A DNA stretch of 64,000 bases from Candidatus Jorgensenbacteria bacterium GW2011_GWB1_50_10 (GTDB lineage: Bacteria > Patescibacteriota > Minisyncoccia > UBA6257 > GWB1-50-10): the NCBI GenBank assembly GCA_001004105.1, contig LCQK01000002.1, positions 347 through 64,346 of the forward strand, in the 5' to 3' direction. Each line of letters starts with the position of its first letter. Position 1 is the first letter of the stretch. The notes beneath the pieces were generated by a model that ran no database searches, was not told the DNA's origin, and saw only the letters and a list, made by a program, of their open reading frames with translations. This document shows, piece after piece, positions 17,473 through 58,285 of the stretch. The position numbers and the translations under genes are program-made.

Positions 17473-17496
17473 GTCAGTATGACATGTCATACTGAC
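17473..17496. promoter_or_regulatory. Perfect 24-nt palindrome GTCAGTATGACATGTCATACTGAC, 2 nt from the 3' end of the TrpR-like gene
   Basis: Perfect dyad, seen directly in the sequence. Confidence 0.5.
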
Positions 17497-17498
17497 TA

Positions 17499-17951
17499 TC
17501 ACAACGAAGGGTGCAGGTAGACTTTCCCGTACTTGGTGCGTCGGTATCTTCGATAGGGTTTCTTTTTGGAAGGGTGGCGGCTCCATACTTTCTTTTTCCG
17601 CTCTGTTTTACCTCGTTCCCGGTAGCTCTTGTAATTCCTTTCTTTGATAGCTTTTCTTATGCTATTTATGGTTTGCCGGGAAATTAGGAGTCCTCTTGAG
17701 ATTTGCTGCGGCCTCTTCCCTGAATTTACAAATTCTGCCACCGCGGCGCGCATGACTATATTGCGGCGCTCATTGGCGGTGACGAGTGTTTCCAAAAATT
17801 TTCCGGATTTGGTTATTCTGTCCCAGCAAGCTTTCTCCCAATCTTTACGTGAAGAATATTCACTTCTCGGCGGCAATAAGAACGAACCCGCGCCCATATT
17901 GTTGATTTTAGCCATAAACAAGTTAAGTTTAACATATTTAATGTATGACAT
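17499..17951 (-). CDS. TrpR/YerC/YecD-like helix-turn-helix protein
   Basis: The block ANERRNIVMRAAVAEFV..GKRPQQISRGLLISRQTINSIRKAI fits the TrpR-like HTH pattern. The start codon is the centre of a palindrome. Confidence 0.5.
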   Translation of the reverse strand: MSYIKYVKLNLFMAKINNMGAGSFLLPPRSEYSSRKDWEKACWDRITKSGKFLETLVTANERRNIVMRAAVAEFVNSGKRPQQISRGLLISRQTINSIRKAIKERNYKSYRERGKTERKKKVWSRHPSKKKPYRRYRRTKYGKVYLHPSL

Positions 17952-19817: not shown

Positions 19818-20363
19818 TTAGTTAATAATTACTATATCTTCTCTTAATACTCCTTTCGGTGGTATTTCTAGATGATTGATGGCTTGCACAATCCCACATT
19901 GAAGTGCTTGTTGTGCAGTAATACTTGTTCCGGTTTTCATCATGTTTTGAACTTTTTGAAGATCTAAACTGCAATTCTCGGAAATAAAATAAGCTATACG
20001 AGTACTCTCTGTTTTTACTGCTAAAAGTTGTTCATTAAGTCCCTTCTCGTCAAATATACCTTGTGTTGTCGCTCCATGCATATAGAATTTTGCATAAGAT
20101 TCTGCCGTTCTCTCTTTTGCGGAAAGATATATCACATTCGCAATAGAATCAATATTATTAGTAGCATGGATAGAAATGGGAATTTTGCAATTTTGAATAA
20201 CAGAAGCTAACGTGAATCCTTCCTGCGTACTCCCTCCTAATGAAGAAAACAATAAAATAATTTTTTTAGCACCTTGTTGAGTAGCGTTATTAACTGCGTT
20301 TAGCAATCTATTACCAAAACCCTGTTCAATTATCCCAGCGAAAACGATATAATAATCCATCAC
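19818..20363 (-). CDS. ClpP/crotonase-fold serine-protease-like protein (S14/S49 class)
   Basis: Aligns by eye to ClpP: LLFSSLGGS against the ClpP SPGGS block, a TNNIDS Ser position, and a FYMHGA His position. AT-rich. Confidence 0.55.
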   Translation of the reverse strand: MMDYYIVFAGIIEQGFGNRLLNAVNNATQQGAKKIILLFSSLGGSTQEGFTLASVIQNCKIPISIHATNNIDSIANVIYLSAKERTAESYAKFYMHGATTQGIFDEKGLNEQLLAVKTESTRIAYFISENCSLDLQKVQNMMKTGTSITAQQALQCGIVQAINHLEIPPKGVLREDIVIIN

Positions 20364-20409
20364 GGTTAAATTATATGTATAAATTTATTTTAAAGATACC
20401 CAACCTTCT

Positions 20410-20787
20410 TCAACTCTTAACAGCAATCATACTTATCTCAACCCGGGCGCCGAGGGGGAGTTCCTTGACGCAAACCGTTTCGCGGGCGGGGAATGGCTCC
20501 GACATATAGCTTCCGTACACTTCATTCACCTCGCCGTAAAGAGATATATCGGTTACGTAAATCGTAGTTTTGACCACATCCTTAAATGACACCCTAGCCG
20601 CCTCAAGAATCGCTTGCAAATTTTTCATTGCTTGGTGAGTTTGTTCTTCAATGCTCCCCTCAAGTGGTTTCCCCTCCGGCGTTAAGTGTACCTGTCCTGA
20701 AGTAAAAACCATATTGCCGTCTACAACCGCCTGCGAGAAAGGACCAGTTGCTTTTGGGGCTTTTGGAGTTTCAATTTTTTTCTTCAT
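20410..20787 (-). CDS. ridA: RidA/YjgF family reactive-intermediate deaminase
   Basis: 125 aa with conserved YjgF blocks (GPFSQAV..G...F.SGQ). Confidence 0.85.
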   Translation of the reverse strand: MKKKIETPKAPKATGPFSQAVVDGNMVFTSGQVHLTPEGKPLEGSIEEQTHQAMKNLQAILEAARVSFKDVVKTTIYVTDISLYGEVNEVYGSYMSEPFPARETVCVKELPLGARVEISMIAVKS

Positions 20788-20798
20788 TGAGAAATTTT

Positions 20799-21236
20799 TT
20801 AAAAGACTTTGCTGCTGATTTCAATTTTCACTCCCTTGATATAATTTTCTATTGATTTATGAACCCCTAATTTCATAGCTTCCTCCGGTGATTTCCAAAA
20901 GAATTCCTTAAGTTCTCTATCATCCAGTTTTACATCATCCGTCAGCGCTTCGCAGAGAACATGGAAATATACGAGGTGGGCTTTTCTATGAAAAGCGGGG
21001 TCATTAATCAGTTCTCCAATATTCACGCAATAGAGGGGCTTAAGTTTCAGTCCTGTTTCTTCTTCACCCTCTCTTTTTGCGGCCTCTAAAATTGTTTCGC
21101 CGAGCTCCACATGTCCTCCGGGGAGAAGATATTTCTCACCCCATTTGTGTGATTTTATGAGTAGAACTTTTTTCTCTCTATTCACAATAAGTGCAGAAGC
21201 AACCACCTCAGCATAATTGTAATTTTTAGGTGTCAT
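20799..21236 (-). CDS. NUDIX hydrolase
   Basis: Nudix box GGHVELGETILEAAKREGEEETG. The start is trimmed to the internal Met to avoid overlap with the upstream gene. Confidence 0.8.
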   Translation of the reverse strand: MTPKNYNYAEVVASALIVNREKKVLLIKSHKWGEKYLLPGGHVELGETILEAAKREGEEETGLKLKPLYCVNIGELINDPAFHRKAHLVYFHVLCEALTDDVKLDDRELKEFFWKSPEEAMKLGVHKSIENYIKGVKIEISSKVF

Positions 21237-21260
21237 GTTTAGAGATATTAGATTGATTAT

Positions 21261-21286
21261 ATAAACCTTTTCTTTTCTAAGCCAGA
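21261..21286 (+). repeat. 26-nt family-B motif ATAAACCTTTTCTTTTCTAAGCCAGA
   Basis: Identical to the copy at 58570-58595. About 25 nt upstream (on the - strand) of the NUDIX start. Confidence 0.6.
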
Positions 21287-21304
21287 TTTTGAAATAGTGG
21301 GGGA

Positions 21305-22093
21305 TTATCTTCTGATAATAAAATAAAACCCCGGGTATACCATTCCATGGAGACCCTTCTGCGGCTCTTTGCTCTCCAATTGGTTGTTGATTTCCCAATC
21401 ATGAGTCATCGCGTAATGCAAACCGACAAGACCATCCTCGGCCGGAGGATTTTCGCAATAATAACCGTCAACTTGGTCGGAAAGAAGCGTAACCTTGGCT
21501 CCAAAACCGAGTGATAGTTCCTTACCGTTTATAAATTTGTAGCCGCGCTTTTCAATTTCTTGCCACATAGCTTCGGGTATCTTTTTGATTGGGTCGCCGT
21601 ACGGGTAAGTAATGATCTTATTTCCGTTTGCTGAAAGATTCAGCGTTGGCCGTTTTCCGGATTCTTGGTGCTCCTTGCCGATAAATTTGTGAGTCCAGTC
21701 CATTGCCGGGTAGTGGTCAAAGGTGTATAGAGGCAGGCCGTCTTTCTGAATGCTAATAATTAGGCTGTAAATCGGCTCACGGGCGGCATAGCGATACGTC
21801 CCGTCAATTGGGTCTACTGTCAGTAAAAATTCCCCTTCCGGGTCAAATTTGTCCACCAAATCTGTTTTTTCTTCGGCAATCAGACGGCATTGAATAAGCT
21901 CCGTTTTGCTGATGGCGGACAATACCGCTTCTTGAACTGCAAAGTCCGCTTCGGTAACCACGTCAACCTCATCGATTCCCGTACTCTTCTTTTTCTTAGG
22001 AGATATTTCCCGCTGCATCTTCACGGCAATTTTACCCGCCTCAATAAAGGCGGGTTCTAATTTCTTAATCGTTTCTAGATAACTCTCAATCAT
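21305..22093 (-). CDS. Inositol monophosphatase family protein (SuhB/CysQ-like)
   Basis: DPIDGT motif; 262 aa. Confidence 0.82.
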   Translation of the reverse strand: MIESYLETIKKLEPAFIEAGKIAVKMQREISPKKKKSTGIDEVDVVTEADFAVQEAVLSAISKTELIQCRLIAEEKTDLVDKFDPEGEFLLTVDPIDGTYRYAAREPIYSLIISIQKDGLPLYTFDHYPAMDWTHKFIGKEHQESGKRPTLNLSANGNKIITYPYGDPIKKIPEAMWQEIEKRGYKFINGKELSLGFGAKVTLLSDQVDGYYCENPPAEDGLVGLHYAMTHDWEINNQLESKEPQKGLHGMVYPGFYFIIRR

Positions 22094-26160: not shown

Positions 26161-27201
26161 ATGGATAATCTGCTTATCATAGCCGTATTTGTCCTTGCTG
26201 CCGCCGTAGCAGCGCTCTTATGGTTTATTTTCAAGCGTGGTGGCGCCGGCGGCGACAATCAGTCGATGCTAATGCTTCAGCAGCAATTAAATAACCTCAA
26301 CCGCACTATTGATTCCAAAATCGGCGAATCAACGAAAGCGATGCAGCGGCAGTTCGGCGAGAGCGCGAAAATCATCCGCGACGTGACGGAGCGCCTGACG
26401 CGGCTCGATGAAACGAACAAACAGGTGGTGAATTTCGCCGACCAGCTGAAATCCCTGCAGGATATCCTGAAAAATCCGAAACAGCGCGGGGTTTTGGGAG
26501 AGTATTATCTGGAGACGGTTTTGAAAAACGTGATGCCGCCGGGCACTTACCAGATGCAGTACGAGTTCAAGGACGGCACAATCGTGGATGCGGTGGTTTT
26601 CGTCAAAGAAAAAATCATTCCAATTGATTCCAAGTTCAGCTTGGAAAATTACAATCGTCTCATTGCTACTCGCGATGACGCCGAGAAAAAGCGGTTGGAA
26701 GAGGCGTTTCGGAGCGATTTGAAAACCAGGATTGACGAGACTTCAAAATACATCAAGCCGGGGGAGAACACGATGGATTTCGCTTTCATGTTCATTCCGG
26801 CCGAGGCCGTTTATTACGATTTACTCATCAACAAAGTCGGTTCGGTTGAGGCGCGGGATTTGATTGAATACGCCATAGTGGATAAAAAAGTGATTGTGGT
26901 CTCGCCGACCTCGTTTCTCGCGTATCTTCAAACCGTGCTTCAGGGTTTGAAAGCGCTCCAGATTGAAGAGTCGGCTAAGGAAATCAGAAAAAGAGTGGAA
27001 GAGTTGGGCCGGCACTTGGGCAGTTACGAAACCTACATGAAGAAATTGGGGACGCACTTGGGCACCACGGTTAATATGTATAACAGCGCTTCCAAAGAAC
27101 TCGGCAAAATTGACAAGGACGTTTTGCGCATCAGCGGTCGGGCCGCCGGTATTGAACCAATAAGCATTGATGGACCGAGAAGCGCAGACGAAACGGAATA
27201 A
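26161..27201 (+). CDS. rmuC: DNA recombination protein RmuC
   Basis: N-terminal TM, coiled coil, and the conserved RmuC C-terminal block DFAFMFIPAEAVY. Confidence 0.82.
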   Translation: MDNLLIIAVFVLAAAVAALLWFIFKRGGAGGDNQSMLMLQQQLNNLNRTIDSKIGESTKAMQRQFGESAKIIRDVTERLTRLDETNKQVVNFADQLKSLQDILKNPKQRGVLGEYYLETVLKNVMPPGTYQMQYEFKDGTIVDAVVFVKEKIIPIDSKFSLENYNRLIATRDDAEKKRLEEAFRSDLKTRIDETSKYIKPGENTMDFAFMFIPAEAVYYDLLINKVGSVEARDLIEYAIVDKKVIVVSPTSFLAYLQTVLQGLKALQIEESAKEIRKRVEELGRHLGSYETYMKKLGTHLGTTVNMYNSASKELGKIDKDVLRISGRAAGIEPISIDGPRSADETE

Positions 27202-27922
27202 GTTGCTGGAAAAGAAATGGCGGAAGTTTTTGCGCCTCCGGCCGGTTTTTTCGTTCATTCCTTTTCTGGATTTCGTGATTGTTTCGGGTTCTTTAGCCAC
27301 CGGTAACGTTCACGAGAATTCGGATTTTGACGTAATTGTGGGCGCGCGAAAAGGTAAGATTTTCACGGTGCGGGCTTTCTGCGTTTTCGTTTTCGGGATT
27401 TTAGGCCTGCGGCGGCGGGGGATAGACCACAAAGCAGCGTCCAGCGATAAAGTTTGTTTCAATCACTTCGTGACACCGAAGGCCTATCGGCTTTCGCCGC
27501 CCTACAACGATTACTGGGTGAAGCTTTACCAGAATCTCGTGCCGGTTTATGGCAGAGAAAAGGCGGTAAGGGATTTTTTCCGGGCTAACGATTGGGCACT
27601 GCCTGCCGGCAGGCAGGGGCCACGCGAGACAATTTTCAGCGAAAAGTACTGGCAGAGCACAAACCCCAATCCTGCAGGTGGTATACATATGTATACCACC
27701 TGGATTTTAAAGACTTTCTTTGAGTTTGTTTTGCAGGGCTGGATCTTGGGCCGGGTTTTTGAAAAGTTCGTGAAAATCATAGAGCTCCATTACATCAAAA
27801 AGGGAATCAAGAACGGCGCTTTGGGTTTCAAGCCGCGCGTCCGCTACGGCGACGACGAATTGGAATTTCACCCCGACACCGCCCGGATTGAGGAGATGCT
27901 CAAAGAGGACTTGCGTTTTTAG
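27167..27922 (+). CDS. Nucleotidyltransferase-domain protein (Pol-beta-like NTase fold)
   Basis: Motif GSLATG(N5)SDFDVIV followed by a downstream acidic residue; 35-nt overlap with rmuC. Confidence 0.55.
   Translation: MMDREAQTKRNKLLEKKWRKFLRLRPVFSFIPFLDFVIVSGSLATGNVHENSDFDVIVGARKGKIFTVRAFCVFVFGILGLRRRGIDHKAASSDKVCFNHFVTPKAYRLSPPYNDYWVKLYQNLVPVYGREKAVRDFFRANDWALPAGRQGPRETIFSEKYWQSTNPNPAGGIHMYTTWILKTFFEFVLQGWILGRVFEKFVKIIELHYIKKGIKNGALGFKPRVRYGDDELEFHPDTARIEEMLKEDLRF
27674..27701. repeat. Perfect 28-nt palindrome CAGGTGGTATACAT|ATGTATACCACCTG (family C) inside the NTase CDS
   Basis: Core GGTGGTATACATATGTATACCACC is identical to the copy at 40495-40518. Confidence 0.7.
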
Positions 27923-28148: not shown

Positions 28149-30668
28149 ATGCGGTCTAATTTTTTGGGATTTTTATTCAAGGACCCGACAAGCCGGCTGA
28201 AGGATGCCGTCCGGCTTATTAACGCCGAAGAGCCGAAAGTGGAAAAATTGAGCGACGAGGAACTGAAATCGGCTTCTTTGGATTTGAGGAAAAAAATATC
28301 TACTGGAGATTCAATAGAGAATAGCGGAGATACAATGGATAATCTTCTGCCGCAGGCATTTGCCTTGGTGCGGGAGGCGAGCCGCCGGACGCTTCGCCAG
28401 CGCCACTTTGACGTCCAGCTTATGGGAGGCATCGTGCTCCACGAAGGGAAAATCGCCGAGATGATGACCGGCGAGGGTAAGACGCTTGTGGCAACATTGC
28501 CGGTGTATCTGAACGCCATATCCGGCAAGGGCGTGCACGTTGTGACGGTGAATGACTATCTGGCCAAGCGCGACACCGTTTGGATGGGGCAGATTTACCA
28601 CGCCTTGGGACTCAAGATTTCCTGCATCGTTCACGACACCGCTTACCAGTACGACCCGGAATTTGAGGGCACCGAATTGGACAAGGAGCGCGATGCGGTC
28701 GCGAGCTTCAAAGTTTTGGAAAAATTCCTGCGGCCGATAAGCCGGCGGGAAGCCTACCAAGCGGACATCACTTACGGCACGAACCACGAGTTCGGTTTTG
28801 ACTATCTGCGGGACAATCTAGTTTTGCGCCTCGCCGACAAAGTTCAAAAGGAACACAACTACGCGATTATCGACGAGGTGGACAGCATTTTGATAGACGA
28901 GGCGCGGACGCCGCTTATAATTTCGGCGCCCGACGTTGAGTCAAGCGGCTATTACCGGACGTTCGCGAAACTCGTTGAACGTTTGAATCAGGAAGACGAC
29001 TATGTCGTTGACGAAAAATTGAGAGTCGTAAACATCACCGATGCGGGTCTCGATAAGGTTGAAAAAATTCTCTCCATTCAAAACATCTTCGGGCCGGAGA
29101 ATGTGCGGCTGGTCCATTTTTTGCAGGAGAGCTTGCGGGCCAAGGCGCTTTTCAAGCGCGACAAGGATTATGTCGTCAAAAACGGCGAGGTGATAATTGT
29201 TGACGAGTTCACCGGCCGGATGCTTTTGGGAAGGCGCTATTCGGGCGGTTTGCATCAGGCGATTGAAGCGAAGGAGGGCGTCTCCGTGCAGGAAGAGAAC
29301 CGCACTTACGCCCAGATTACGATTCAAAATTATTTCCGGCTCTACAAGAAAATCGCCGGCATGACCGGTACCGCTTCCACGAGTGCCGAAGAATTCCACA
29401 AGGTTTACAATCTGGATGCGGTGACGGTTCCGACGAATAAACCGCTCGTTCGGCAGGATTTGTCGGATGCCGTTTATAAGGATAAAGACGGGAAATTCAA
29501 AGCGGTCGCGGAAGAAGTGAAGCGCCGGCACCTGCGTGGCCAGCCCGTGCTTTTGGGCACCGCTTCCATTAGCCACAACGAGTTGCTCTCGGAGTATTTG
29601 AAGCGCGTGGGCGTTCCGCACGAGGTTTTGAACGCCAAGAACAACGAGCGGGAAGGCGAGATTATCGCCCAGGGCGGCCGGGCCGGAGCGGTCACGGTCG
29701 CGACCAACATCGCCGGCCGGGGCGTGGACATTGTTTTAGGCGGTAATCCGCCCAATCCCGAAGAAGCGCAAAAAGTTAAGGAACTTGGCGGTTTGCACGT
29801 CGTCGGTACCGAACGGCATGAAGCGAGGAGAATTGACAACCAGCTTCGTGGCCGGAGCGGCCGGCAAGGCGACCCCGGCTCCACGCAATTCTTTTTGTCG
29901 CTGGAGGACGACCTGCTCCGCATTTTCGGCGGCGACAGAATCAAAAGTTTGATGGAAACTTTGAATTTCCCGGAAGACATGCCCATTGAGTCAAAAATGG
30001 TTTCCCGGTCGGTGAACCAAGCCCAGGCCCGCGTTGAGGGCGCGAACTTGGACATCCGGCGGCATCTTTTGGATTTTGATGACGTATTGAACAAACAGCG
30101 AATCGCCGTTTACGGGAAACGGGCGAAAATTCTGGAGGCGGGGGAGAAAGGCGAAATCCGGCCGTTCCTCATTGAAACGCTCGCGCACTTCGTGGATATC
30201 GCTGAGGAAGGGTTTAAAAAAGGAATAGAAGCGGGCGCGTTAAAGCGGGAAGACGAAGGGAAAATTGCCGAGTTGAGGCAAAAACTCAACACGATCCCTG
30301 AAAAAATTGAACCGGAGCGGGCGCAGGCGGTTGGTCAGCACATGACGCGGATTTTGGACAGTTTGTGGATTGGGCATTTGGAAAACCTGGAGGCGTTGCG
30401 GGACTCCGTTAATATCCGCGCTTACGGCCAGCACGAGCCATTGGTGGAATACCGGCGCGAGGCGCACAAGCTCTACACCGAGCTTAATCTCAATTTTGAG
30501 TCGCTTACGTTCAACACAATCTTTCAGTTTTTTGAAGGGGCCGCGAATAGATTTAAAATGGAAGCTAGACCGCAAGTGGCCAAGCCAGCCGACGTCAAAA
30601 AAATCGGCCGCAACGATCCCTGCTGGTGCGGTTCAGGCAAAAAGTTCAAAAAGTGCCATGGGGTGTGA
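28149..30668 (+). CDS. secA: Preprotein translocase ATPase SecA
   Basis: DEAD-like motor motifs and a C-terminal CWCGSGKKFKKCHG zinc finger. Confidence 0.95.
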   Translation: MRSNFLGFLFKDPTSRLKDAVRLINAEEPKVEKLSDEELKSASLDLRKKISTGDSIENSGDTMDNLLPQAFALVREASRRTLRQRHFDVQLMGGIVLHEGKIAEMMTGEGKTLVATLPVYLNAISGKGVHVVTVNDYLAKRDTVWMGQIYHALGLKISCIVHDTAYQYDPEFEGTELDKERDAVASFKVLEKFLRPISRREAYQADITYGTNHEFGFDYLRDNLVLRLADKVQKEHNYAIIDEVDSILIDEARTPLIISAPDVESSGYYRTFAKLVERLNQEDDYVVDEKLRVVNITDAGLDKVEKILSIQNIFGPENVRLVHFLQESLRAKALFKRDKDYVVKNGEVIIVDEFTGRMLLGRRYSGGLHQAIEAKEGVSVQEENRTYAQITIQNYFRLYKKIAGMTGTASTSAEEFHKVYNLDAVTVPTNKPLVRQDLSDAVYKDKDGKFKAVAEEVKRRHLRGQPVLLGTASISHNELLSEYLKRVGVPHEVLNAKNNEREGEIIAQGGRAGAVTVATNIAGRGVDIVLGGNPPNPEEAQKVKELGGLHVVGTERHEARRIDNQLRGRSGRQGDPGSTQFFLSLEDDLLRIFGGDRIKSLMETLNFPEDMPIESKMVSRSVNQAQARVEGANLDIRRHLLDFDDVLNKQRIAVYGKRAKILEAGEKGEIRPFLIETLAHFVDIAEEGFKKGIEAGALKREDEGKIAELRQKLNTIPEKIEPERAQAVGQHMTRILDSLWIGHLENLEALRDSVNIRAYGQHEPLVEYRREAHKLYTELNLNFESLTFNTIFQFFEGAANRFKMEARPQVAKPADVKKIGRNDPCWCGSGKKFKKCHGV

Positions 30669-30687
30669 GGATAGGAAAAATGTGAAT

Positions 30688-31431
30688 ATGGCTATAAAAT
30701 TGGATTTCAAAATAGAAGACGATTACTTGATAGTTCACACGCTATCAAATATGGGAAAGGGTAAATTTTCTTCAACGAAGTGTCAGAAAGATATTGTGGC
30801 ATTTCAGAATTACGCGTGGGGAAAATGCAAACCATGCTATAACTTACTTATTGGAAGGTTTCAAACAACAAAGATAGTGAAGGGGGGATTACAAAAAACA
30901 GCAGAACAATTGCCGAAATTCTTAAATGAATTAAAGAGGAGTGAGCAGTACAAAAAAATTCGTCAGCAGACAGAGGAATATTTTAGATTCTGTAAAAATC
31001 AATGGAATGGTAACTATCTTGTTGCAAGTAAAATAATAGAGGAATTGATGGGATTGAAATTGAATAAAAAAATTGCGGTATACATTACTCATCCCGGTTT
31101 GAAAAATGGAAGGTATGTAGGAAATAACACAATCGAGTGGGGGCACAATGAAGATTGGCCGAATTATGCAACTATATACTTATGGCACGAAATTCTTCAT
31201 TCATATATCGGATATTCAGAAAAAGGGCATGCGGTAATTGAATTGATAACGGATGAAGAATTGCGGACTCAATTAAACAGTGGTAAATACCCGCCATTTG
31301 TGGGACACAAGTATCTAAAATCGATTAAAAATAGATTATTGCCTCAATGGAGAAAATATCTTAATTCCGAAGAAAGAAACATTAGGAAATTTATAAAAGA
31401 AATTCCGCATGGGATAGTGAATAAAGCGTAA
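30688..31431 (+). CDS. Hypothetical protein with an HExxH motif (WHEILHSY...E); AT-rich
   Basis: The listed ORF 30370..31431 has a 5' part in an alternative frame over secA. The credible start is ATG 30688. About 35% GC. Confidence 0.45.
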   Translation: MAIKLDFKIEDDYLIVHTLSNMGKGKFSSTKCQKDIVAFQNYAWGKCKPCYNLLIGRFQTTKIVKGGLQKTAEQLPKFLNELKRSEQYKKIRQQTEEYFRFCKNQWNGNYLVASKIIEELMGLKLNKKIAVYITHPGLKNGRYVGNNTIEWGHNEDWPNYATIYLWHEILHSYIGYSEKGHAVIELITDEELRTQLNSGKYPPFVGHKYLKSIKNRLLPQWRKYLNSEERNIRKFIKEIPHGIVNKA

Positions 31432-31465
31432 AAGCGTCATAGGAAATAAGATATCCACAGCGCTA

Positions 31466-31495
31466 TTGACAACAAGTTTATCTAAAGATAAACTT
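31466..31495 (+). promoter_or_regulatory. TTGACA -35 element plus a perfect 22-nt palindrome AAGTTTATCT-AA-AGATAAACTT upstream of the Phd-like antitoxin
   Basis: Palindrome at 31474-31495, immediately upstream of the 31502 start. Confidence 0.5.
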
Positions 31496-31501
31496 TAAAA
31501 T

Positions 31502-31741
31502 ATGAAAAATAATATTGTCGGTCTGAAAGAGCTCCGAGAAAATATAGAGAACTACATCGCCCAGGTTAAAAAGGGCAAATCCTTTATTGTAGTGCGCCGC
31601 TCAAAACCGGTGCTTAAAGTTTCTTCCCCTGACGACGAGGGGCTTTGGGAAACCGTTGCTGATTTCACTAAGATAAACAAAAACGGAGTCGCCGCCAGAG
31701 ATGTCTTAAAAGAACTCCGCAAACTGAATGCCCGCTCTTAG
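31502..31741 (+). CDS. Phd/YefM-family type II antitoxin
   Basis: Pattern GLKELRENIENYI....GKSFIVVRRSKPV matches the Phd/YefM N-terminus; followed by an overlapping toxin-like ORF. Confidence 0.6.
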   Translation: MKNNIVGLKELRENIENYIAQVKKGKSFIVVRRSKPVLKVSSPDDEGLWETVADFTKINKNGVAARDVLKELRKLNARS

Positions 31742-31967
31742 AAAACTTCTTTCTAAATTTGACAAGGCGGAAAGAAAAATAATAGAAGCTTTGATTGAGA
31801 AAGTTATTTCTTTGAACTGGCGCGGTTTAGACGTTAAAAAGCTTAAGGGGTATCAAAACATTTTTCGCGTTCGCAAAGGCAAAATCAGGATTATTTTTTC
31901 CAGAAACGGCAAAAATATTTCTATCCTGTCCGTTGAACGTCGGCGAGAAGATACTTATAGGTTGTAA
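31728..31967 (+). CDS. RelE/ParE-family type II toxin
   Basis: Block KKLKG....FRVRKGKIRIIFS..G..I.IL.V.RR...Y; 14-nt overlap with the antitoxin. Confidence 0.6.
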   Translation: MPALRKLLSKFDKAERKIIEALIEKVISLNWRGLDVKKLKGYQNIFRVRKGKIRIIFSRNGKNISILSVERRREDTYRL

Positions 31968-31974
31968 AAGCGCC

Positions 31975-32688
31975 ATGGGACTAGCTGAGCTGGTTGGGTC
32001 TCGTGAGGATAAGAATATGGAAAAGAAAAGTATAAAACAAATATACGATGAATATGATATATCCCCGGCCCTACAGACGCATATGTATCGAGTCGCGGCG
32101 GTAGGTTCCATAATTTGCCGAAATTTTCAGGAGACAATGGAAACCGCCGAAATTATATCGGCTTGCCTGCTGCATGATATGGGCAACATAATAAAATTTA
32201 ATTTTGATGTTTTGCCGGAGCTAGTTGAGCCGCAAGGCAAAGATTACTGGTTGGGCATTCAGAAAAACTTTAAAGATCGGTATGGAGAAGATGAACATGA
32301 GGCCACATACGCGATTGCGAAAGAAATAGGTGTCACGGATAGAGTGTGTGATATAGTTCGGTCAATAGGATTTAGAAAGGCATGCGAGAGATATAAGAAC
32401 GACGATCTTGCCGAGAAAATTTGTACATACGCGGATGAAAGAACAGGGCCATTTGGCGTTTTATCTTTAAAAGGTAGAATCAGGGAGGGTCATAAGCGTT
32501 TCTTGGCATCCGGACGAAAACCAACCGGTGACGAAAGAACGTTTCAGACGCTTGTATCCTGTCTTGAGGGCATCGAAAAACAAATATTCAGCCATTTAGC
32601 TATCAAACCGGCGGATATCAACGACGGTTCGGTAAATTTAGAAATCGAAAATCTCAAAGAATTTGGCATCATTATAAAGTCCGCATGA
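31975..32688 (+). CDS. HD-domain phosphohydrolase
   Basis: LLHDMG HD motif. The start is set at the first Met after the toxin stop; the alternative start is 32017. Confidence 0.6.
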   Translation: MGLAELVGSREDKNMEKKSIKQIYDEYDISPALQTHMYRVAAVGSIICRNFQETMETAEIISACLLHDMGNIIKFNFDVLPELVEPQGKDYWLGIQKNFKDRYGEDEHEATYAIAKEIGVTDRVCDIVRSIGFRKACERYKNDDLAEKICTYADERTGPFGVLSLKGRIREGHKRFLASGRKPTGDERTFQTLVSCLEGIEKQIFSHLAIKPADINDGSVNLEIENLKEFGIIIKSA

Positions 32689-32733
32689 TATTAAGAAATG
32701 CGGGAGTGGGTATGAAATGCCATAGAAAATGCA

Positions 32734-33087
32734 ATGATTAAAAAGTGGCAAAATATTACCAGCAAGATTGAGCCGTGGTGGACGCTGGTTGGGGCGCCTG
32801 TTATACAAGAATTCATTTTCCGGTTTGTTCCGTATCAGATTTATGTTGCCTACGGCGGATTCTATACAGTTGGTATAGTAAGCTCTATCTTATTTGCCGC
32901 AATTCATTGGTATTTTGGGAGATGGTTTGTGTTGTACGCGTTAGTGGGGGGATTTATTGCCTGGTTTGTAATGGTAAGCTACGGGCTTTTATGGGCAGTG
33001 ATTCTTCACGTCGTTGCGAATGTCGTACTTTTGAGATTAGGGGTGTTACAGAAAGTTAAAGAAAAATCTCCGCAGAAAGGGAAGTAA
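32734..33087 (+). CDS. CPBP (CAAX protease/Abi) family intramembrane protein
   Basis: Conserved His blocks AAIHWY and ILHVVAN in TM helices. Confidence 0.55.
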   Translation: MIKKWQNITSKIEPWWTLVGAPVIQEFIFRFVPYQIYVAYGGFYTVGIVSSILFAAIHWYFGRWFVLYALVGGFIAWFVMVSYGLLWAVILHVVANVVLLRLGVLQKVKEKSPQKGK

Positions 33088-33102
33088 TTAAGCAAAAACG
33101 CC

Positions 33103-33375
33103 ATGGAAAATAATTTAGAGCAACGAATTCAAAAAATTGAGGAGAGGAATAGAGCAGTGGAAGCCGATAAGGGTTGGGAGACGAGCTGGACAAGGCGGGT
33201 TTTACTGACAATATTTACTTATTTAGCTATTGCTGTTTATCTCTGGGCGATAAGAATATCGTAGCCATGGCTGAATGCCATCGTGCCGGCGGTGGCTTTT
33301 ATGATTTCAACCTTAACAATGCCGTGGTTTAAGAAGGTTTGGCTGAAGTATGTTCGGCGGCAGAAGGAGATATAA
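33103..33375 (+). pseudogene. Small 2-TM protein ORF interrupted by an in-frame TAG at 33262-33264 (53-aa ORF plus a 36-codon in-frame continuation)
   Basis: MENNLEQRIQKIEERN...LAIAVYLWAIRIS-TAG-PWLNAIVPAVAFMISTLTMPWFKK...; the second hydrophobic helix continues in the same frame. Confidence 0.3.
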
Positions 33376-33439
33376 AATACAAACTTAGCTTGAATTGCCG
33401 GGCTCCATATTTTAGACTTGGGATGTCGGCTTTATTGAT

Positions 33440-33685
33440 ATGATTTCCAAAGAGGACAAGGCCAGTTCGGCGCATTCCAAGGGTTTTATCCGCCCCTTAG
33501 CTCTCGCTTGGGAGCTTGGTTACACCATCGCTATTCCGATTGTTGTTATGGCTTTGGGCGGGAGATTTCTGGATAGGTATTTCGGCACGGGTCCGATTTT
33601 ACTGCTCGTCGGCATCTTCGTTTCCGTTCTGCTTACGAGTTTCCTGGTTTACCGGAAAACGAAGAAAGTTTTGTCTCAATTTTAG
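33440..33685 (+). CDS. AtpZ/AtpI-like small membrane protein preceding the ATP synthase operon
   Basis: 81 aa, 2 TM, located directly upstream of atpB. Confidence 0.45.
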   Translation: MISKEDKASSAHSKGFIRPLALAWELGYTIAIPIVVMALGGRFLDRYFGTGPILLLVGIFVSVLLTSFLVYRKTKKVLSQF

Positions 33686-40487: not shown

Positions 40488-40528
40488 AAACCAAGGTGGT
40501 ATACATATGTATACCACCTTGGTTTTTT
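40488..40528 (+). terminator. Family-C palindrome AAACCAAGGTGGTATACA|TATGTATACCACCTTGGTTT followed by TTTTT; rho-independent terminator
   Basis: 18-bp stem followed by a T-run, after the DUF1653 gene. Confidence 0.6.
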
Positions 40529-40601: not shown

Positions 40602-40970
40602 CTAGGAGTGCAGGGAACTCCAGCGGCCTCGGCCGTAGGAAGCGGGGTATTTTTGAAATTTATTCCTTTTAGGAAATTTTGAGTAAATTTTCTTTTTATA
40701 ATTGAGTTTTTTCAGGCCGCGCTTGATGAAAATCACGGTTTTTCTCGCGACGTCAGCTTTCTTGCTAGTTTCTCTCAAGCTTTCACCCTGCTTCAGGAAA
40801 TAAAGAGCAGCCAATCTTTTTTCCAAAATGACTTTTTCTTCTTCGGTTAGGAATTTTGAAAGAAAATCCGCCGGGCCGGATTTCTTGGATTTTTCAACCT
40901 CGGCCCAGAAAATTTTCCAAATCTCCTTTCTCAATCCCTCGCTAAAATTTTTCCTATTAGTTCTCGGCAT
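40602..40970 (-). CDS. TrpR/YerC/YecD-like helix-turn-helix protein
   Basis: Block EEEKVILEKRLAALYFLKQGESLRETSKKADVARKTV. The start is set at the internal Met; the listed ORF extends to 41024. Confidence 0.55.
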   Translation of the reverse strand: MPRTNRKNFSEGLRKEIWKIFWAEVEKSKKSGPADFLSKFLTEEEKVILEKRLAALYFLKQGESLRETSKKADVARKTVIFIKRGLKKLNYKKKIYSKFPKRNKFQKYPASYGRGRWSSLHS

Positions 40971-40972
40971 GG

Positions 40973-40996
40973 GTGGTATACTTAAGTATACCACCG
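40973..40996. promoter_or_regulatory. Family-C palindrome variant GGTGGTATACTTAAGTATACCACC, abutting the start of the TrpR-like gene
   Basis: Perfect 24-nt dyad, 2 nt from the ATG. Confidence 0.5.
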
Positions 40997-41148
40997 GGGA
41001 TTGAAATAGGAAGTGGCTGGGCATAAAATTGACAAAGGTATTAATATTTGACTGGGGGCAGACGCTTTACGGCGGTTTTCCCCAAGTATTCGGAGAAAAT
41101 TAAAAAAATACGGCCTCATTGTGATAGAGTTGTGATAAAATTAATACA

Positions 41149-43094: not shown

Positions 43095-43182
43095 ATTTCA
43101 TTAGATTCCGATCCCCACAGTCTTTTTTATTTCATTATATTTGGTATACGCTATAAACTTGAGGTATGATATAATAAGAAAA

Positions 43183-43848
43183 ATGGGGAAAAGGGGACCG
43201 AAGCCGAAAAGAAAGGTGGAAATCAGATGGTCGCCGGAATTTGCTTATGCCCTCGGGCTTTTGGCTACCGATGGGAATCTTTCTTCGGATGGCCGGCACC
43301 TTGATCTCACTTCTCAAGATAAAGAACAGCTTTTGAATTTTATGAAATGTCTTAGGATCAAGGTGGAAATTGGTTATAAAACTTCCGGGTTGAGCGGAGA
43401 AAGAACAGCCCGGGTTCAGTTCGGAGATGTCAATTTTTATAAATTTTTATTAAACATCGGTTTTTCACCCAACAAGTCGAAAACCATAGGGAGATTGGAT
43501 ATTCCGGATAAGTATTTCTTTGATTTTCTCCGAGGTCATTTTGACGGCGACGGTACTTTTTATTCTTATTGGGATCCGCGCTGGAGGTCGAGTTTTATGT
43601 TTTACACGGTTTTCATTTCGGCCAGCAAAGGTCATATTCAGTGGTTGAGAAAAAAAATTAATGAAACGTTGCCTATAAAGGGGCACATAACCAAGAGTAA
43701 AACCCAATCCACTTATAATCTTAAATACGCTAAAAGAGAATCATTAAAATTACTGAAAAAAGTTTATTATTCTCATAAAGTAATTTGCCTTTCTCGCAAA
43801 CGTTTGAAGATTGAAAAAGCTTTGGCTATAATGGGAGCGAAGCTATAA
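43183..43848 (+). CDS. LAGLIDADG homing endonuclease (double-motif, free-standing)
   Basis: Motifs LGLLATDGNLS and LRGHFDGDGTF; AT-rich; TATAAT about 10 nt upstream. The listed ORF starts at TTG 43141. Confidence 0.75.
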   Translation: MGKRGPKPKRKVEIRWSPEFAYALGLLATDGNLSSDGRHLDLTSQDKEQLLNFMKCLRIKVEIGYKTSGLSGERTARVQFGDVNFYKFLLNIGFSPNKSKTIGRLDIPDKYFFDFLRGHFDGDGTFYSYWDPRWRSSFMFYTVFISASKGHIQWLRKKINETLPIKGHITKSKTQSTYNLKYAKRESLKLLKKVYYSHKVICLSRKRLKIEKALAIMGAKL

Positions 43849-43849
43849 T

Positions 43850-43934
43850 GCCCAGGTGGCGGAACTGGAATACGCGTGCGTTCGAGGGGCGCATGCCGCA
43901 AGGCTTGCGGGTTCAAATCCCGCCCTGGGCACCA
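43850..43934 (+). tRNA. tRNA-Leu, type II with a long variable arm; anticodon most likely GAG; CCA encoded
   Basis: Acceptor GCCCAGG/CCTGGGC; T arm GCGGG-TTCAAAT-CCCGC; 13-nt variable arm; discriminator A. Alignment to canonical tRNA-Leu(GAG) puts GAG at positions 34-36 but gives C at position 33. A reading as Ser-CGA would need a G-G mismatch in the anticodon stem. Confidence 0.7.
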
Positions 43935-44001: not shown

Positions 44002-44451
44002 ATGGAAACAGAAAATACAACTTTCAGTTATGCTGGCTTTTGGAAAAGATTTGCCGCTTTTATCATAGATATGTTTATCGTGTCTATCGGTGGCTTTATT
44101 ATTGGTTTTATATTCGGAGTTCCCTACGATGTTCTCACTGGTAAAGCCGAGTTCGCTGGATTTGCCGAAGATTATATTCTTAGTTTCATTTTGAGTTTTT
44201 TGCTTGTTTGGATTTACCAAGCAGTTATGGAAAGTTCTTCTAAACAAGCGACTCTTGGCAAAATGGCTCTTGGAATAATAGTTACTGATTTGTCTGGCAA
44301 GCGTGTATCTTTCGGAAAGGCATCGGGTCGCTACTTTGGGCAGATACTTTCCGGGTTTATCCTCGGCATAGGATTTCTCATGATTGCTTTTACTGCAAGA
44401 AAACAGGGGCTTCACGATAAAATGGCTGGTTGTCTTGTTGTGAATAAATAA
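44002..44451 (+). CDS. RDD-family membrane protein
   Basis: Blocks FWKRFAAFIIDMFI and ATLGKMALGI...GLHDKMAGCLVV are typical of RDD. Confidence 0.65.
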   Translation: METENTTFSYAGFWKRFAAFIIDMFIVSIGGFIIGFIFGVPYDVLTGKAEFAGFAEDYILSFILSFLLVWIYQAVMESSSKQATLGKMALGIIVTDLSGKRVSFGKASGRYFGQILSGFILGIGFLMIAFTARKQGLHDKMAGCLVVNK

Positions 44452-44831
44452 TGTTTCCATATCGCCGATTTTTATTTCCCCGAGAAGACTATCCGGAAAA
44501 TTGGGACGAATTGAGAAAAGCGGTTTATCGCAGAGACGGATGGCAATGTCAGCAGTGCGGTGCTAGAAATATCCAACTCCACGCCCACCACCAAACTCCG
44601 TTGTCTGCGGGTGGCTCTAACGACATGAGCAACCTGATTACTCTTTGTAAAAATTGTCATATTGATGACCATCCGCACATGTGGTGGGGTAGGTGGAAAG
44701 AAAACAATCCCCAAACCGTTCTCGCACTTCGTATTATTGTTCTCGCCATAGCAATCTCGTTACTTATAATATCTGGCTTTAGTTGGTGGAAAGTTATAAT
44801 TTTAATAATTGTACTTCGACCTTTATTCTGA
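44451..44831 (+). CDS. HNH endonuclease domain protein with a C-terminal transmembrane anchor
   Basis: Block CQQCG...LHAHHQ...NL..LCKNCH, followed by a hydrophobic LALRIIVLAIAISLLIISGFSWWKVIILIIV tail. Confidence 0.65.
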   Translation: MFPYRRFLFPREDYPENWDELRKAVYRRDGWQCQQCGARNIQLHAHHQTPLSAGGSNDMSNLITLCKNCHIDDHPHMWWGRWKENNPQTVLALRIIVLAIAISLLIISGFSWWKVIILIIVLRPLF

Positions 44832-47805: not shown

Positions 47806-48294
47806 ATGGGAAAAGAAAGATACGAACCAATACCAGAAGAAATGCAAAAAGCTGAAAGCTCAATGGAGAGAGTGCAACAAGAACTTTCGAAAATTAGAGA
47901 GAGATATTATGCAGAAAGATTGGAGATAGCTCAGAGAGAGGGTATTCCTCCTGAAGTCTTAGAAGAAACATTTTTGACACTTGATAAGACTCACGATGGA
48001 GGGGAAGACAAAGAATGGCAGTTTATACGCGGAAAAATAAAAAATCTGAGAGTTTCCGGAAGTAGACCAGAAAAAGGATTTACTGTGTATGTTGATATTG
48101 ATGGCAAACAAATGCCGATGAGCGACGCTGGACTTTTTTGGGGAAAATTTGGGGATTTAGCTAAATCTTTTTCTGAAGAACAAGAGCAGGTAGAGGAGGC
48201 ATTGCAAAAAGATTGGGAGACGATAGAAAAAGGGGAGGCGTCACAAGCGGAAGCCGAACAAGCAAAAGAACTTTTGAGAGACATTCTAGACTAG
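47806..48294 (+). CDS. Hypothetical acidic protein inserted between nusG and rplK (AT-rich)
   Basis: 162 aa, Glu-rich, about 38% GC, in a site that is normally contiguous. Confidence 0.45.
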
Positions 48295-58281: not shown

Positions 58282-58285
58282 TATT

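What the first reader, a model, noticed from the sequence alone, without database searches (positions are those of the whole stretch)
30688..33375. AT-rich accessory island after secA: HExxH protein, Phd/RelE pair with palindromic operator, HD hydrolase, CPBP/Abi protein, stop-interrupted small membrane ORF
GC drops sharply after the secA stop. The Phd-like antitoxin is preceded by a TTGACA element and a perfect 22-nt dyad (31474-31495) in the classic autoregulation position. The RelE-like toxin overlaps it by 14 nt. An HD phosphohydrolase and an Abi/CPBP protein follow in the same orientation, so the toxin-antitoxin pair may be part of a larger immunity module. The 248-aa HExxH protein (WHEILHSY) is unassigned, possibly an ImmA/IrrE-like or other gluzincin. 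The 33103-33375 ORF has an in-frame TAG while TAG is a genuine stop elsewhere (rpsJ), so it is probably a pseudogene or two micro-ORFs.
Basis: partly seen in the sequence, partly recalled or inferred. Interest (0 to 1): 0.5.

Follow-up and report, generated by a model that had tools for sequence, protein, structure and literature searches.

The report
Gene-cassette array at the secA stop codon
The AT-rich stretch after secA is not one defence module but four separately inserted small gene cassettes, each bounded by a worn copy of the short sequence where secA's stop overlaps the start of a conserved small membrane-protein gene, and the same landing site holds different cassettes in related ultra-small (CPR) bacteria.

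Summary
The features are real: a GC drop, an HExxH protein, a Phd/RelE pair with promoter and dyad, an HD protein, a mini-CPBP protein and an in-frame TAG. The "larger immunity module" reading is not supported.

In the closest relative (L004) secA's stop overlaps the start of a conserved 88-aa membrane gene, here called F: AAAAAGTGCCATGGAAAATAA. In the window, worn copies of this junction lie at secA's end, after the HExxH gene, after RelE, between HD and CPBP, and at F's start. That defines four cassettes.

Junction-bounded arrays with other cargo occur in at least eight other Parcubacteria genomes. The HExxH and CPBP cassettes recur in other arrays with different neighbours. HD relatives lie near recO and glyS without any toxin-antitoxin pair.

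F is not accessory. It is 56-86% identical across CPR bacteria, DPANN archaea and a few high-GC bacteria. It lies next to secA/secDF in CPR and between ftsY and srp54 in one archaeal lineage. Its TAG is identical in eight assemblies, so it is not a random assembly error.

How the cassettes insert is inferred. No recombinase was found.

The parts
28149..30668 (+). secA, the upstream anchor gene. It ends ...KKFKKCHGV*.
   Evidence: for the ORF. 72% identical to secA of L008 and 71% to secA of L179. The SecA Pfam domains are seen on the identical contig L171.
30649..30668 (+). Junction copy J1 (AAAAGTGCCATGGGGTGTGA), inside the secA 3' end. Its ATG (30658) is in frame with the HExxH ORF.
   Evidence: In-frame translation MGCEDRKNVN-MAIKL.
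30688..31431 (+). Cassette 1: 247-aa HExxH protein (A). It has a gluzincin-like fold and belongs to an unnamed family seen only in Patescibacteria. The start may be at 30658.
31430..31449 (+). Junction copy J2 (AAAAGCGTCATAGGAAATAA). Decayed, with ATG changed to ATA.
   Evidence: 4 mismatches to the independent 19-mer from L004. Alignment A3.
31466..31495 (+). Promoter and operator of cassette 2. The -35 is TTGACA (31466-31471) and the -10-like hexamer is TAAACT (31489-31494). The 10-2-10 dyad (31474-31495) spans the spacer and the -10. The ATG lies 8 nt after the -10, so the mRNA is probably leaderless.
   Evidence: Operator function and a leaderless start are inferred.
31502..31741 (+). Cassette 2: Phd/YefM-type antitoxin, 79 aa.
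   Evidence: PF02604 E=7.7e-6. TIGR01552 above its cut-off.
31728..31967 (+). Cassette 2: RelE/ParE-superfamily toxin, 79 aa, archaeal-RelE-like. The C-terminus reads ...RRREDTYRL.
   Evidence: PDB phmmer: RelE3 (3bpq_B) E=9.5e-6, aRelE (1wmi) E=0.78. Pfam ParE_toxin E=0.0076.
31966..31980 (+). Junction copy J3 (AAAAGCGCCATGGGA). Its ATG (31975) is in frame with the HD ORF.
   Evidence: Translation MGLAELVGSREDKN-MEKK.
32017..32688 (+). Cassette 3: HD-domain phosphohydrolase, 223 aa. The start may be at 31975.
   Evidence: PF01966. 369 relatives, 80 loci kept at 40-51% identity, lying next to recO, an MBL hydrolase, glyS and argS.
32714..32732 (+). Junction copy J3b (GAAATGCCATAGAAAATGC), in the HD-CPBP spacer.
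   Evidence: 5 mismatches to the L004 19-mer. TGCCATAGAAAAT has 1 mismatch to TGCCATGGAAAAT.
32734..33087 (+). Cassette 4: minimal CPBP/Rce1-like intramembrane protease, 117 aa. Motifs QEFIFR, FAAIH and HVVAN.
   Evidence: PF02517 E=1.9e-10. 100% identical to UY26_C0003G0032 of a Candidatus Jorgensenbacteria MAG. Relatives at 77-83% identity lie in the secA arrays L179 and L181.
33094..33113 (+). Junction copy J4 (AAAAACGCCATGGAAAATAA). This is the displaced remnant of the secA end, and it carries the working start codon of F.
   Evidence: 2 mismatches to the L004 19-mer. Alignment A3.
33103..33375 (+). F, the downstream anchor gene. It is a conserved 2-TM protein of about 88 aa, here carrying an amber codon (33262-33264) at loop codon 54.
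   Evidence: 538 homologues at 70-86% identity (top 120 listed), no Pfam family. The same column is CAG in L004 and CGG in L008. The TAG is identical in 8 assemblies. Model: helices 3-26, 29-49 and 55-87.
33440..33685 (+). AtpZ (PF09527), the first gene of the atp operon. The F|atpZ interval is a second variable slot, empty here.
   Evidence: L004 has 6 genes and L008 has 3 genes between F and atpZ.

Best explanation
Region 30669-33102 is a tandem array of four independently acquired, co-oriented gene cassettes:
1. a gluzincin-like HExxH protein;
2. an autoregulated Phd/RelE pair;
3. an HD hydrolase;
4. a mini-CPBP protease.

All four sit at one landing site. That site is the junction where secA's stop codon overlaps the start codon of the conserved small membrane gene F. 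The ancestral form is AAAAAGTGCCATGGAAAATAA.

Shown: each insertion left another copy of this junction, so every cassette is bracketed by one. The leftmost copy still completes secA. The rightmost copy still supplies F's ATG.

Inferred:
- Cassette genes without a promoter (A, HD, CPBP) are transcribed by read-through from secA. They can start translation from the junction ATG or just after it; those ATGs are in frame for A and for HD.
- The TA cassette brings its own promoter with an operator dyad. It probably acts as an addiction unit that hinders loss of the array.
- Insertion works in one of two ways. Either a site-specific recombinase encoded elsewhere uses the junction as its att core. 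Or circular or transformed DNA carrying one junction copy recombines by short homology; the secA zinc-finger codons and F's first codons are conserved across Parcubacteria, so they would serve as a near-universal homology patch.

F itself is core rather than cargo. In this population it carries a genuine amber mutation, most simply CAG to TAG.
For: Ancestral, empty site:
- In L004 secA and F overlap by 11 nt.

Single insertion with a duplicated junction:
- In L008 a glyoxalase gene is flanked by a 21-nt duplication, AAGAGGTGTCATGGGAAATAA. The gene starts at the duplicated ATG.

The window:
- The independent 19-mer from L004 matches 5 places in the 64-kb window on both strands at <=5 mismatches. 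Four of them lie on the + strand at gene boundaries within 30650-33113.
- Inside the secA-to-F gap there are 3 matches against 0.147 expected, P=0.0004.
- J3 matches the 13-mer with 1 mismatch.

Other arrays:
- L005 has 4 copies in its gap against 0.019 expected. Two of them supply the start codons of called genes, at 7056 and 7499.
- Copies are also seen in L006, L014, L020, L029, L059, L179 and L181.
- In L181 a 39-nt copy of the secA end (GSGKKYKRCHGR*) lies about 800 nt downstream of secA.

Cassette modularity:
- The A cassette (66-70% identical) lies behind secA in L168 and between junction copies in L169, with unrelated sequence beyond the copies.
- The CPBP cassette (77-83% identical) lies in arrays L179 and L181 with different neighbours on both sides. 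Homology stops at GCCATGG.

Independence of the genes:
- HD relatives never lie near the other genes.

Composition:
- A has GC 0.34 (z=-2.65), RelE 0.37, HD 0.415 and CPBP 0.42, against 0.49 for the window.
Against: - No recombinase was found in the called genes flanking arrays L005, L006 and L179. In the window, only ORFs from 10466 onward were inspected, by eye and not by profile search. No excision product was observed.
- The internal copies are short and decayed, with 4-5 mismatches in 19.
- Seven secA...F loci with inserts show no detectable copy: L010, L013, L018, L023, L031, L034 and L082.
- The TA and HD cassettes were not found in any other array.
- CPBP is 83% identical to its L179 counterpart. 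Core genes of the same pair are 71-92% identical, so that cassette may have been inherited vertically.
- The sample is about 20 secA-F loci, not a census.
Confidence: 0.75

Rival explanations
1. This is one accessory island whose genes work together: the Phd/RelE pair, the HD hydrolase and the CPBP/Abi protein form a single multi-gene immunity or defence module, acquired in one event.
For: The genes are adjacent, co-oriented and all below the genome's GC content. CPBP/Abi and TA genes are often annotated as immunity-related (general knowledge).
Against: - Each gene or pair is bracketed by its own junction copy.
- GC differs between units, from 0.34 to 0.45.
- 80 HD loci contain none of the other genes.
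- CPBP relatives lie in other arrays beside NUDIX, VTT, Cu-oxidase_4, AAA_18 and C39-like genes, with no relative of this Phd/RelE pair.
- PADLOC shows only a weak dGTPase match (E=0.0069) for the HD protein.
Confidence: 0.05
2. There are no mobile cassettes. The secA-F interval is simply a permissive intergenic spot where genes accumulate and are lost by ordinary illegitimate recombination. The repeated motif would then reflect selection to keep a secA-like translational-coupling or start context in front of each gene (convergence), or repeated local duplication.
For: - Several junction copies do supply start codons, so selection on them is plausible.
- No recombinase was found.
- Seven loci with inserts lack detectable copies.
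- CPBP identity to L179 is in the range of core genes.
Against: - The copies include secA coding sequence far beyond a start context: 36-39 nt encoding GSGKKYK.C.G.* in L005 and L181.
- Decayed copies that have lost the ATG persist (J2, J3b).
- No other gene start in the 64-kb window carries the motif.
- The same cassettes reappear with homology ending exactly at the copies.
Confidence: 0.15
3. For the TAG only: the interrupted F ORF is a sequencing or assembly artefact, or TAG is read through or recoded, so F is made full-length.
For: - Both halves are still conserved. Against L004, the 35 codons downstream of the TAG show 13 synonymous and 3 non-synonymous differences.
- The TAG lies in a variable loop column occupied by R, Q, K, N, H or D.
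Against: - The sequence is identical, with the TAG, in 8 assemblies, which rules out a random error.
- TAG ends 16 of 74 ORFs in the window.
- There is no tRNA(CUA) among the two tRNAs in the window.
- Low-level natural read-through cannot be excluded.
Confidence: 0.15

Closest known systems
Chromosomal integron cassette arrays (IntI, attI and attC; sedentary arrays that include TA cassettes)
   Same: - Tandem, co-oriented units of mostly one gene, mostly without promoters, placed downstream of a fixed site.
- A short repeated boundary at every cassette.
- The same cassette is found in different arrays next to different neighbours.
- One TA cassette with its own promoter. From my own knowledge, TA cassettes stabilise large integron arrays.
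   Different: - No IntI gene near any array examined.
- No structured 50-150-nt attC sites.
- Here the repeated boundary is a copy of the target itself, the secA 3' end plus F's start.
- Cassettes take over a start codon rather than rely only on Pc.
Genomic islands integrated at the 3' end of tRNA, tmRNA or conserved protein genes, with att duplication and tandem arrays
   Same: - Insertion at the 3' end of a conserved gene, which stays intact.
- The displaced 3'-end copy (13-39 nt) remains as a direct repeat on the far side.
- Repeated use of the site gives arrays separated by repeats.
   Different: The units are 0.4-1.1 kb and carry no integrase, excisionase or mobility genes. The target is a stop/start overlap between two protein-coding genes.
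Recombinase-free modular shuffling by short repeated regulatory cassettes (PeSL elements of T4-type phages), and Xer-dependent dif modules of Acinetobacter plasmids
   Same: Single genes or TA pairs are bracketed by short repeated sequences that allow modules to be excised and reinserted (from my own knowledge of those systems).
   Different: The junction is not a promoter-plus-stem-loop and is not a 28-bp dif-like imperfect palindrome; only CCATGG is palindromic. The host is a CPR bacterium, and the site is chromosomal and coding.
Phd/YefM-RelE type II toxin-antitoxin systems
   Same: - The antitoxin gene comes first and overlaps the toxin gene by 14 nt.
- Both proteins are 79 aa.
- A palindrome lies over the promoter.
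- The toxin's best solved relative is RelE3.
   Different: The profile scores are weak. Toxicity, neutralisation and operator binding are untested. The transcript is probably leaderless.
Gluzincin metallopeptidases (M1 aminopeptidase and thermolysin catalytic domains)
   Same: - HExxH on a helix preceded by a three-stranded sheet.
- A Glu 20 residues after the second His, on the next helix (E191, >=90% conserved).
   Different: - No sequence-level match to any Pfam, NCBIfam or PDB entry.
- A private 120-residue N-terminal helical domain.
- Extra invariant residues H135 and H181.
- A 247-aa stand-alone cytoplasmic protein seen only in Patescibacteria.
Small Sec-translocon accessory proteins (YajC, SecG): comparison for F only
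   Same: A small membrane protein encoded between secA and secDF in Parcubacteria, the position yajC occupies before secDF in E. coli. In an Aenigmatarchaeota lineage it lies between ftsY and srp54.
   Different: - No Pfam match to YajC or SecG.
- The predicted topology is N-in, 2 TM, C-in with a 28-aa charged N-helix, unlike YajC (1 TM) or SecG.
- Most of its 80 sampled contexts have no Sec or SRP gene nearby.

Membership tests
Integron | An IntI tyrosine recombinase gene adjacent to the array | tested here: not met
   No recombinase among the called genes flanking arrays L005, L006, L171 (identical to the window) and L179. In the window, ORFs from 10466 onward were inspected by eye only, not by a full profile scan.
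Integron | attC sites (imperfect inverted repeats with R''/R' cores) at cassette ends | tested here: not met
   The boundaries are direct copies of the secA/F junction. Only CCATGG is palindromic, and no inverted repeat pair lies at the boundaries.
Integron | A tandem array of co-oriented cassettes that recur in other arrays | tested here: met
   There are four cassettes in the window. The A cassette also occurs in L168 and L169, and the CPBP cassette in L179 and L181, with different neighbours.
3'-end-targeting integrative island | A direct repeat of the target gene's 3' end flanking the insert, with the target gene left intact | tested here: met
   The duplication is 21 nt in L008, >=36 nt in L005, 39 nt in L181 and 13-20 nt in the window. 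secA keeps its CxC...CH motif.
3'-end-targeting integrative island | An element-encoded integrase | tested here: not met
   The cassettes carry one gene or one TA pair. None has a recombinase domain.
Phd/YefM antitoxin | Profile match to the N-terminal Phd/YefM fold | tested here: met
   TIGR01552 scores 21.6 bits against a cut-off of 20.8. PF02604 scores 26 bits, below its gathering score of 29.8.
RelE/ParE toxin | Profile or sequence match to the RelE fold | tested here: inconclusive
   PF05016 gives E=0.0076 and 17.2 bits, below its cut-off of 23. phmmer against RelE3 (3bpq) gives E=9.5e-6 over residues 17-72.
RelE/ParE toxin | Toxicity that is neutralised by the cognate antitoxin; operator binding | not testable with these tools
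   This needs expression assays and EMSA.
Gluzincin (clan MA(E)) metallopeptidase | HExxH plus a downstream Glu ligand on the next helix, in a zincin fold | tested here: met
ImmA/IrrE (Peptidase_M78) | Profile or fold match to M78; a partner HTH repressor gene | tested here: not met
CPBP / Rce1-like intramembrane protease | Pfam PF02517 with the EExxxR, FxxxH and HxxxN motifs | tested here: met
   E=1.9e-10, 41.3 bits. The motifs read QEFIFR, FAAIH and HVVAN. At 117 aa it is the bare catalytic core.
HD phosphohydrolase | Pfam HD domain with the H...HD motif | tested here: met
   PF01966 scores 24.8 bits against a cut-off of 22. The motif is LLHDMGN. The substrate is unknown.
YajC / SecG (for F) | Profile match | tested here: not met
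   No match for 26 family members at E<=1.

The most novel reading that the evidence does not exclude
Parcubacteria (CPR) carry an integron-like gene-capture system that has not been described. Its attachment site is the overlap between the secA stop codon and the start codon of a small membrane gene. Single-gene cassettes move between species through this roughly 20-40-nt site, which is kept nearly universal by selection on SecA's zinc-finger codons. The cassettes take over its start codon for expression. Movement would depend either on no dedicated recombinase or on an unlinked, unknown one.

A further reading: the anchor gene F is 56-86% identical across CPR bacteria, DPANN archaea and a few other bacteria, and it is linked to secA/secDF and to ftsY/srp54. 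It could be an unrecognised accessory factor of protein targeting or translocation.
Probability: 0.4. Interest if true: 0.8.

Novelty: new variant of a known kind. Interest (0 to 1): 0.62.

Why it matters
CPR bacteria have tiny genomes with few recognisable mobile elements, and how they acquire accessory genes is poorly understood. A landing site defined by a stop/start overlap between two conserved genes, used repeatedly across lineages and holding arrays of small housecleaning, protease and TA genes, would be a simple route for gene flow in this group. The arrays are also a ready-made catalogue of CPR accessory functions.

This reading changes how the individual genes should be interpreted. 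They are independent cargo, not an operon with a shared function.

Two families without any annotation stand out as targets for experiment:
- the HExxH zincin seen only in Patescibacteria;
- the small membrane protein F, which crosses domains and is exceptionally conserved for its size.

Tried and rejected
- PADLOC scan of all six products: only a weak dGTPase match (E=0.0069) for the HD protein.
- Profile search of the A family against PDB sequences: no hit.
- Pfam scan of 10 longer A-family members for informative fusions: a single M23 fusion, otherwise nothing.
- IMG/VR scans for A and F: no viral relatives, so carriage by phages is not supported.
- Foldseek against afdb50: the library was unavailable.
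- Pfam scan of 26 F-family members: only weak, scattered DUF hits.
- Exact look-up of the A protein: not on record, probably because the start was called differently. The source genome was identified through the CPBP protein instead.
- Flanking repeats around distant A homologues (L001, L003, L170): none found, so the A gene does not carry its own repeats wherever it occurs.
- A fuzzy-regex scan timed out. It was replaced by a Hamming-distance scan.
- Literature searches for CPR integrons, secA hotspots or the F family: nothing relevant in the held library.
- A suppressor tRNA in the window: none.
- A second F copy in the window: none.


Full report
**What is there**

The window comes from a Candidatus Jorgensenbacteria MAG. 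The CPBP product is 100% identical to UY26_C0003G0032, and 6.3 kb of the window is identical to the Rifle groundwater contig L171.

- secA (28149-30668, GC 0.53) is followed by five co-oriented genes with lower GC:
  - A: HExxH protein, 30688-31431, GC 0.34.
  - B: Phd, 31502-31741, GC 0.45.
  - C: RelE-like, 31728-31967, GC 0.37, overlapping B by 14 nt.
  - D: HD, 32017-32688, GC 0.415.
  - E: CPBP, 32734-33087, GC 0.42.
- Next comes the TAG-interrupted ORF F (33103-33375), followed by the atp operon (AtpZ 33440, then atpB and onward).
- Family assignments hold with varying strength. CPBP and HD are above their Pfam cut-offs. Phd is above the TIGR01552 cut-off. The toxin is weak in Pfam (ParE_toxin E=0.0076), but its best solved relative is M. 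jannaschii RelE3 (E=9.5e-6).
- The promoter TTGACA-17-TAAACT (31466-31494) is the best sigma-70-like match in the region, 10 of 12.
- The dyad is 10-2-10, not a perfect 22-mer. It covers the spacer and the -10.
- The ATG lies 8 nt after the -10 with no Shine-Dalgarno sequence, so the mRNA is probably leaderless (inferred).

**The stretch is accessory, but the TAG ORF is not**

F has 538 homologues. The top 120 listed are 83-132 aa, mostly 83-95 aa, and 70-86% identical. None matches a Pfam family. Both halves of the window's ORF align across the TAG. The TAG column is a variable loop position, mostly R, with Q in the closest homologue.

- In the closest relative, L004, secA's last codons overlap F's start by 11 nt: AAAAAGTGCCATGGAAAATAA.
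- In L008, a Jorgensenbacteria MAG, the surrounding order is preserved: RmuC, then the ORF matching window 27167-27922, then secA, F, atpZ, atpB and atpE. The core genes are 70-88% identical. The only thing between secA and F is a glyoxalase gene.
- None of genes A-E occurs in the 80 genome loci that carry F.
- In about 20 Parcubacteria loci, secA lies upstream of F on the same strand. The distance ranges from an 11-nt overlap to 3.3 kb.

**Repeated junctions define four cassettes**

A repeat search found AAAAGYGCCATGG four times, each at a gene boundary. I then used the L004 junction as an independent probe (AAAGTGCCATGGAAAATAA, up to 5 mismatches).

- The whole window has 5 matches on both strands. 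Four are on the + strand:
  - 30650, at secA's end;
  - 31431, just after A's stop;
  - 32714, in the HD-CPBP spacer;
  - 33095, at F's start.
- Within the secA-to-F gap there are 3 matches against 0.147 expected (P=0.0004).
- A fifth copy follows RelE at 31966. It matches the 13-mer with one mismatch.
- The copies align with one another and with the L004 and L008 junctions.
- The junction ATGs at 30658 and 31975 are in frame with A and with HD.

The stretch therefore consists of four units: [A], [promoter/operator-Phd-RelE], [HD] and [CPBP].

**The pattern is general**

- L008: a 21-nt duplication flanks the glyoxalase gene, which starts at the duplicated ATG.
- L005: four copies in a 2.3-kb gap, against 0.019 expected. 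Two supply the start codons of called genes, and further copies lie beyond F towards secD.
- L006, L014, L020, L029 and L059: remnants of the secA end lie in front of F or inside the gap.
- L179 (Brennerbacteria): secA, seven genes, F, two genes, then the atp operon, with junction copies at two gene starts.
- L181: four copies. One is a 39-nt copy of GSGKKYKRCHGR* lying about 800 nt after secA.
- Seven loci with inserts show no detectable copy.

**Cassettes recur with different neighbours**

- The closest A homologues are in the same kind of site. In L168 (70% identical) A directly follows a secA end that reads ...KKCHGV*, as in the window, and another copy follows A. In L169 (66% identical) A lies between two copies, and the next gene (ASCH) starts at the junction ATG. 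Sequence beyond the copies is unrelated in all three.
- CPBP relatives (77-83% identical) are in arrays L179 and L181 with different genes on both sides. Homology ends at GCCATGG.
- More distant A homologues (50-61% identical) lie in unrelated places: inside a macB-like operon, after clpB, and next to recO. They have no such repeats.
- HD relatives (40-51% identical, 80 loci) never have A, B, C, E, F or secA within the flanks held. Their usual neighbours are an HD paralogue, RecO, an MBL-fold hydrolase, a PaaX-like protein, GlyRS and ArgRS.

PADLOC found only a weak dGTPase match for the HD protein.

**How it most likely works**

Shown:
- insertions at one junction, each with a duplicated junction;
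- arrays of co-oriented single-gene units;
- reuse of the same cassettes in different arrays.

Inferred:
- Promoterless cassettes are expressed by read-through from secA and start translation at or near the junction ATG.
- The TA cassette is self-regulated through the dyad and stabilises the array.
- Insertion happens either by an unlinked site-specific recombinase or by short-homology recombination of DNA carrying one junction copy. That patch is conserved across lineages because it encodes SecA's zinc-finger end and F's first codons.
- No recombinase lies among the called genes flanking the arrays examined.

**Protein A**

- The family has 517 representatives at E<=0.001 among 1.84 billion proteins. 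The named members are Patescibacteria or unclassified bacterial MAGs. There is no Pfam, NCBIfam or PDB sequence match.
- The AF2 model is confident, with pLDDT 93.4.
- Conserved residues fit HExxH (167-171) plus E191, with spacing x19 as in thermolysin. E168 is invariant; H167, H171 and E191 are conserved in at least 90% of sequences. H135 and H181 are also invariant, and a WGHNED stretch precedes the active-site helix.
- It is most likely a cytoplasmic zinc peptidase. Its substrate is unknown.
- ImmA/IrrE is not supported.

**Gene F**

- Topology from the model and the charge distribution: a charged N-terminal helix (3-26), TM1 (29-49), a 5-residue loop and TM2 (55-87).
- The family also occurs at 56-69% identity in contigs that are clearly archaeal, since they carry prefoldin or Cdc6/Orc1. 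It also occurs in a few high-GC bacterial contigs. It is absent from IMG/VR.
- In Parcubacteria it often lies between secA and secDF.
- In an Aenigmatarchaeota lineage it lies between ftsY and srp54, overlapping ftsY's stop.
- This suggests a role in protein targeting or translocation, but most contexts are uninformative. I rate it about 0.3.

**The TAG**

- It is identical in 8 assemblies, so it is not a random error.
- TAG is a normal stop codon here, and no suppressor tRNA is in the window.
- Downstream of the TAG the gene still looks constrained, with 13 synonymous and 3 non-synonymous codon differences against L004.
- The simplest reading is a recent CAG-to-TAG nonsense allele fixed in this population. 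It would leave a 53-aa fragment with one TM helix. Low-level read-through cannot be excluded.

**Comparison with known systems and verdict**

The array works like an integron array or like tandem islands at a tRNA 3' end. It fails the defining tests for both, because it has no IntI gene, no attC sites and no element-borne integrase.

I file it as a new variant of a known kind: a site-specific integration hotspot or cassette array. The held literature returned nothing on it.

The toxin-antitoxin pair, the HD protein and the CPBP protein are ordinary in themselves. The interest lies in the landing site and in two unannotated families, A and F.

Noticed in passing
window 33103-33375; loci L019, L021, L080, L039, L032, L083, L084: The small membrane protein F is 56-69% identical between CPR bacteria and DPANN archaea. 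The archaeal contigs carry prefoldin or Cdc6. F also occurs in a few high-GC (0.64-0.65) bacterial contigs, one of them 2.8 Mb long. It has no Pfam family. In Aenigmatarchaeota it lies between ftsY and srp54.
   Followed up: partly
window 33376-33439; L004 434-4171; L008 10264-11499; L005 8265-11268: The interval after F (between F and atpZ, or F and secD) is a second variable slot. It is empty in the window. L004 has 6 genes there (glyoxalase, LMWPc, PCC, TrpR-like and others) and L008 has 3 (PCC, MazG-like, DinB-like). Junction-like copies also occur downstream of F in L005 (8271, 10681) and in L008 (10660).
   Followed up: partly
window 27677-27700, 40495-40518, 40972-40995: A 24-nt perfect palindrome, GGTGGTATAC-N4-GTATACCACC, occurs three times against 0 expected. 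Two copies flank a TrpR-like gene (40602-41024, minus strand). The third lies inside ORF 27167-27922, upstream of secA. It may be a regulator binding site.
   Followed up: partly
window 17473-17496 and 17499-17951 (-): Another perfect palindrome, GTCAGTATGACATGTCATACTGAC, lies immediately next to a second TrpR-like gene (PF01371, E=1.6e-4).
   Followed up: no
window 43141-43848 (+), 43850-43934 tRNA-Leu, 44451-44831 (+): A low-GC ORF (0.38) with LAGLIDADG-like motifs (read by eye) abuts tRNA-Leu(gag). A nearby ORF has an HNH-like CxxC...H..H pattern. These may be homing-endonuclease remnants.
   Followed up: no
window 19818-21398 (-), 47806-48294 (+), 57874-58564 (+): Other small low-GC genes (GC 0.31-0.40, against 0.49 for the window) are scattered among core genes. 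They may be further small insertions. I did not check them for flanking repeats.
   Followed up: no
L170 6001-11824 and HD loci L088-L167: In L170 the A homologue lies just upstream of the recO - large protein - glyS block. In many other CPR genomes that block is preceded by the HD family. The region upstream of recO may be another variable slot.
   Followed up: no
L075 1217-1456 and 10001-10234: One Woesebacteria contig carries two copies of the F gene about 8.5 kb apart.
   Followed up: no
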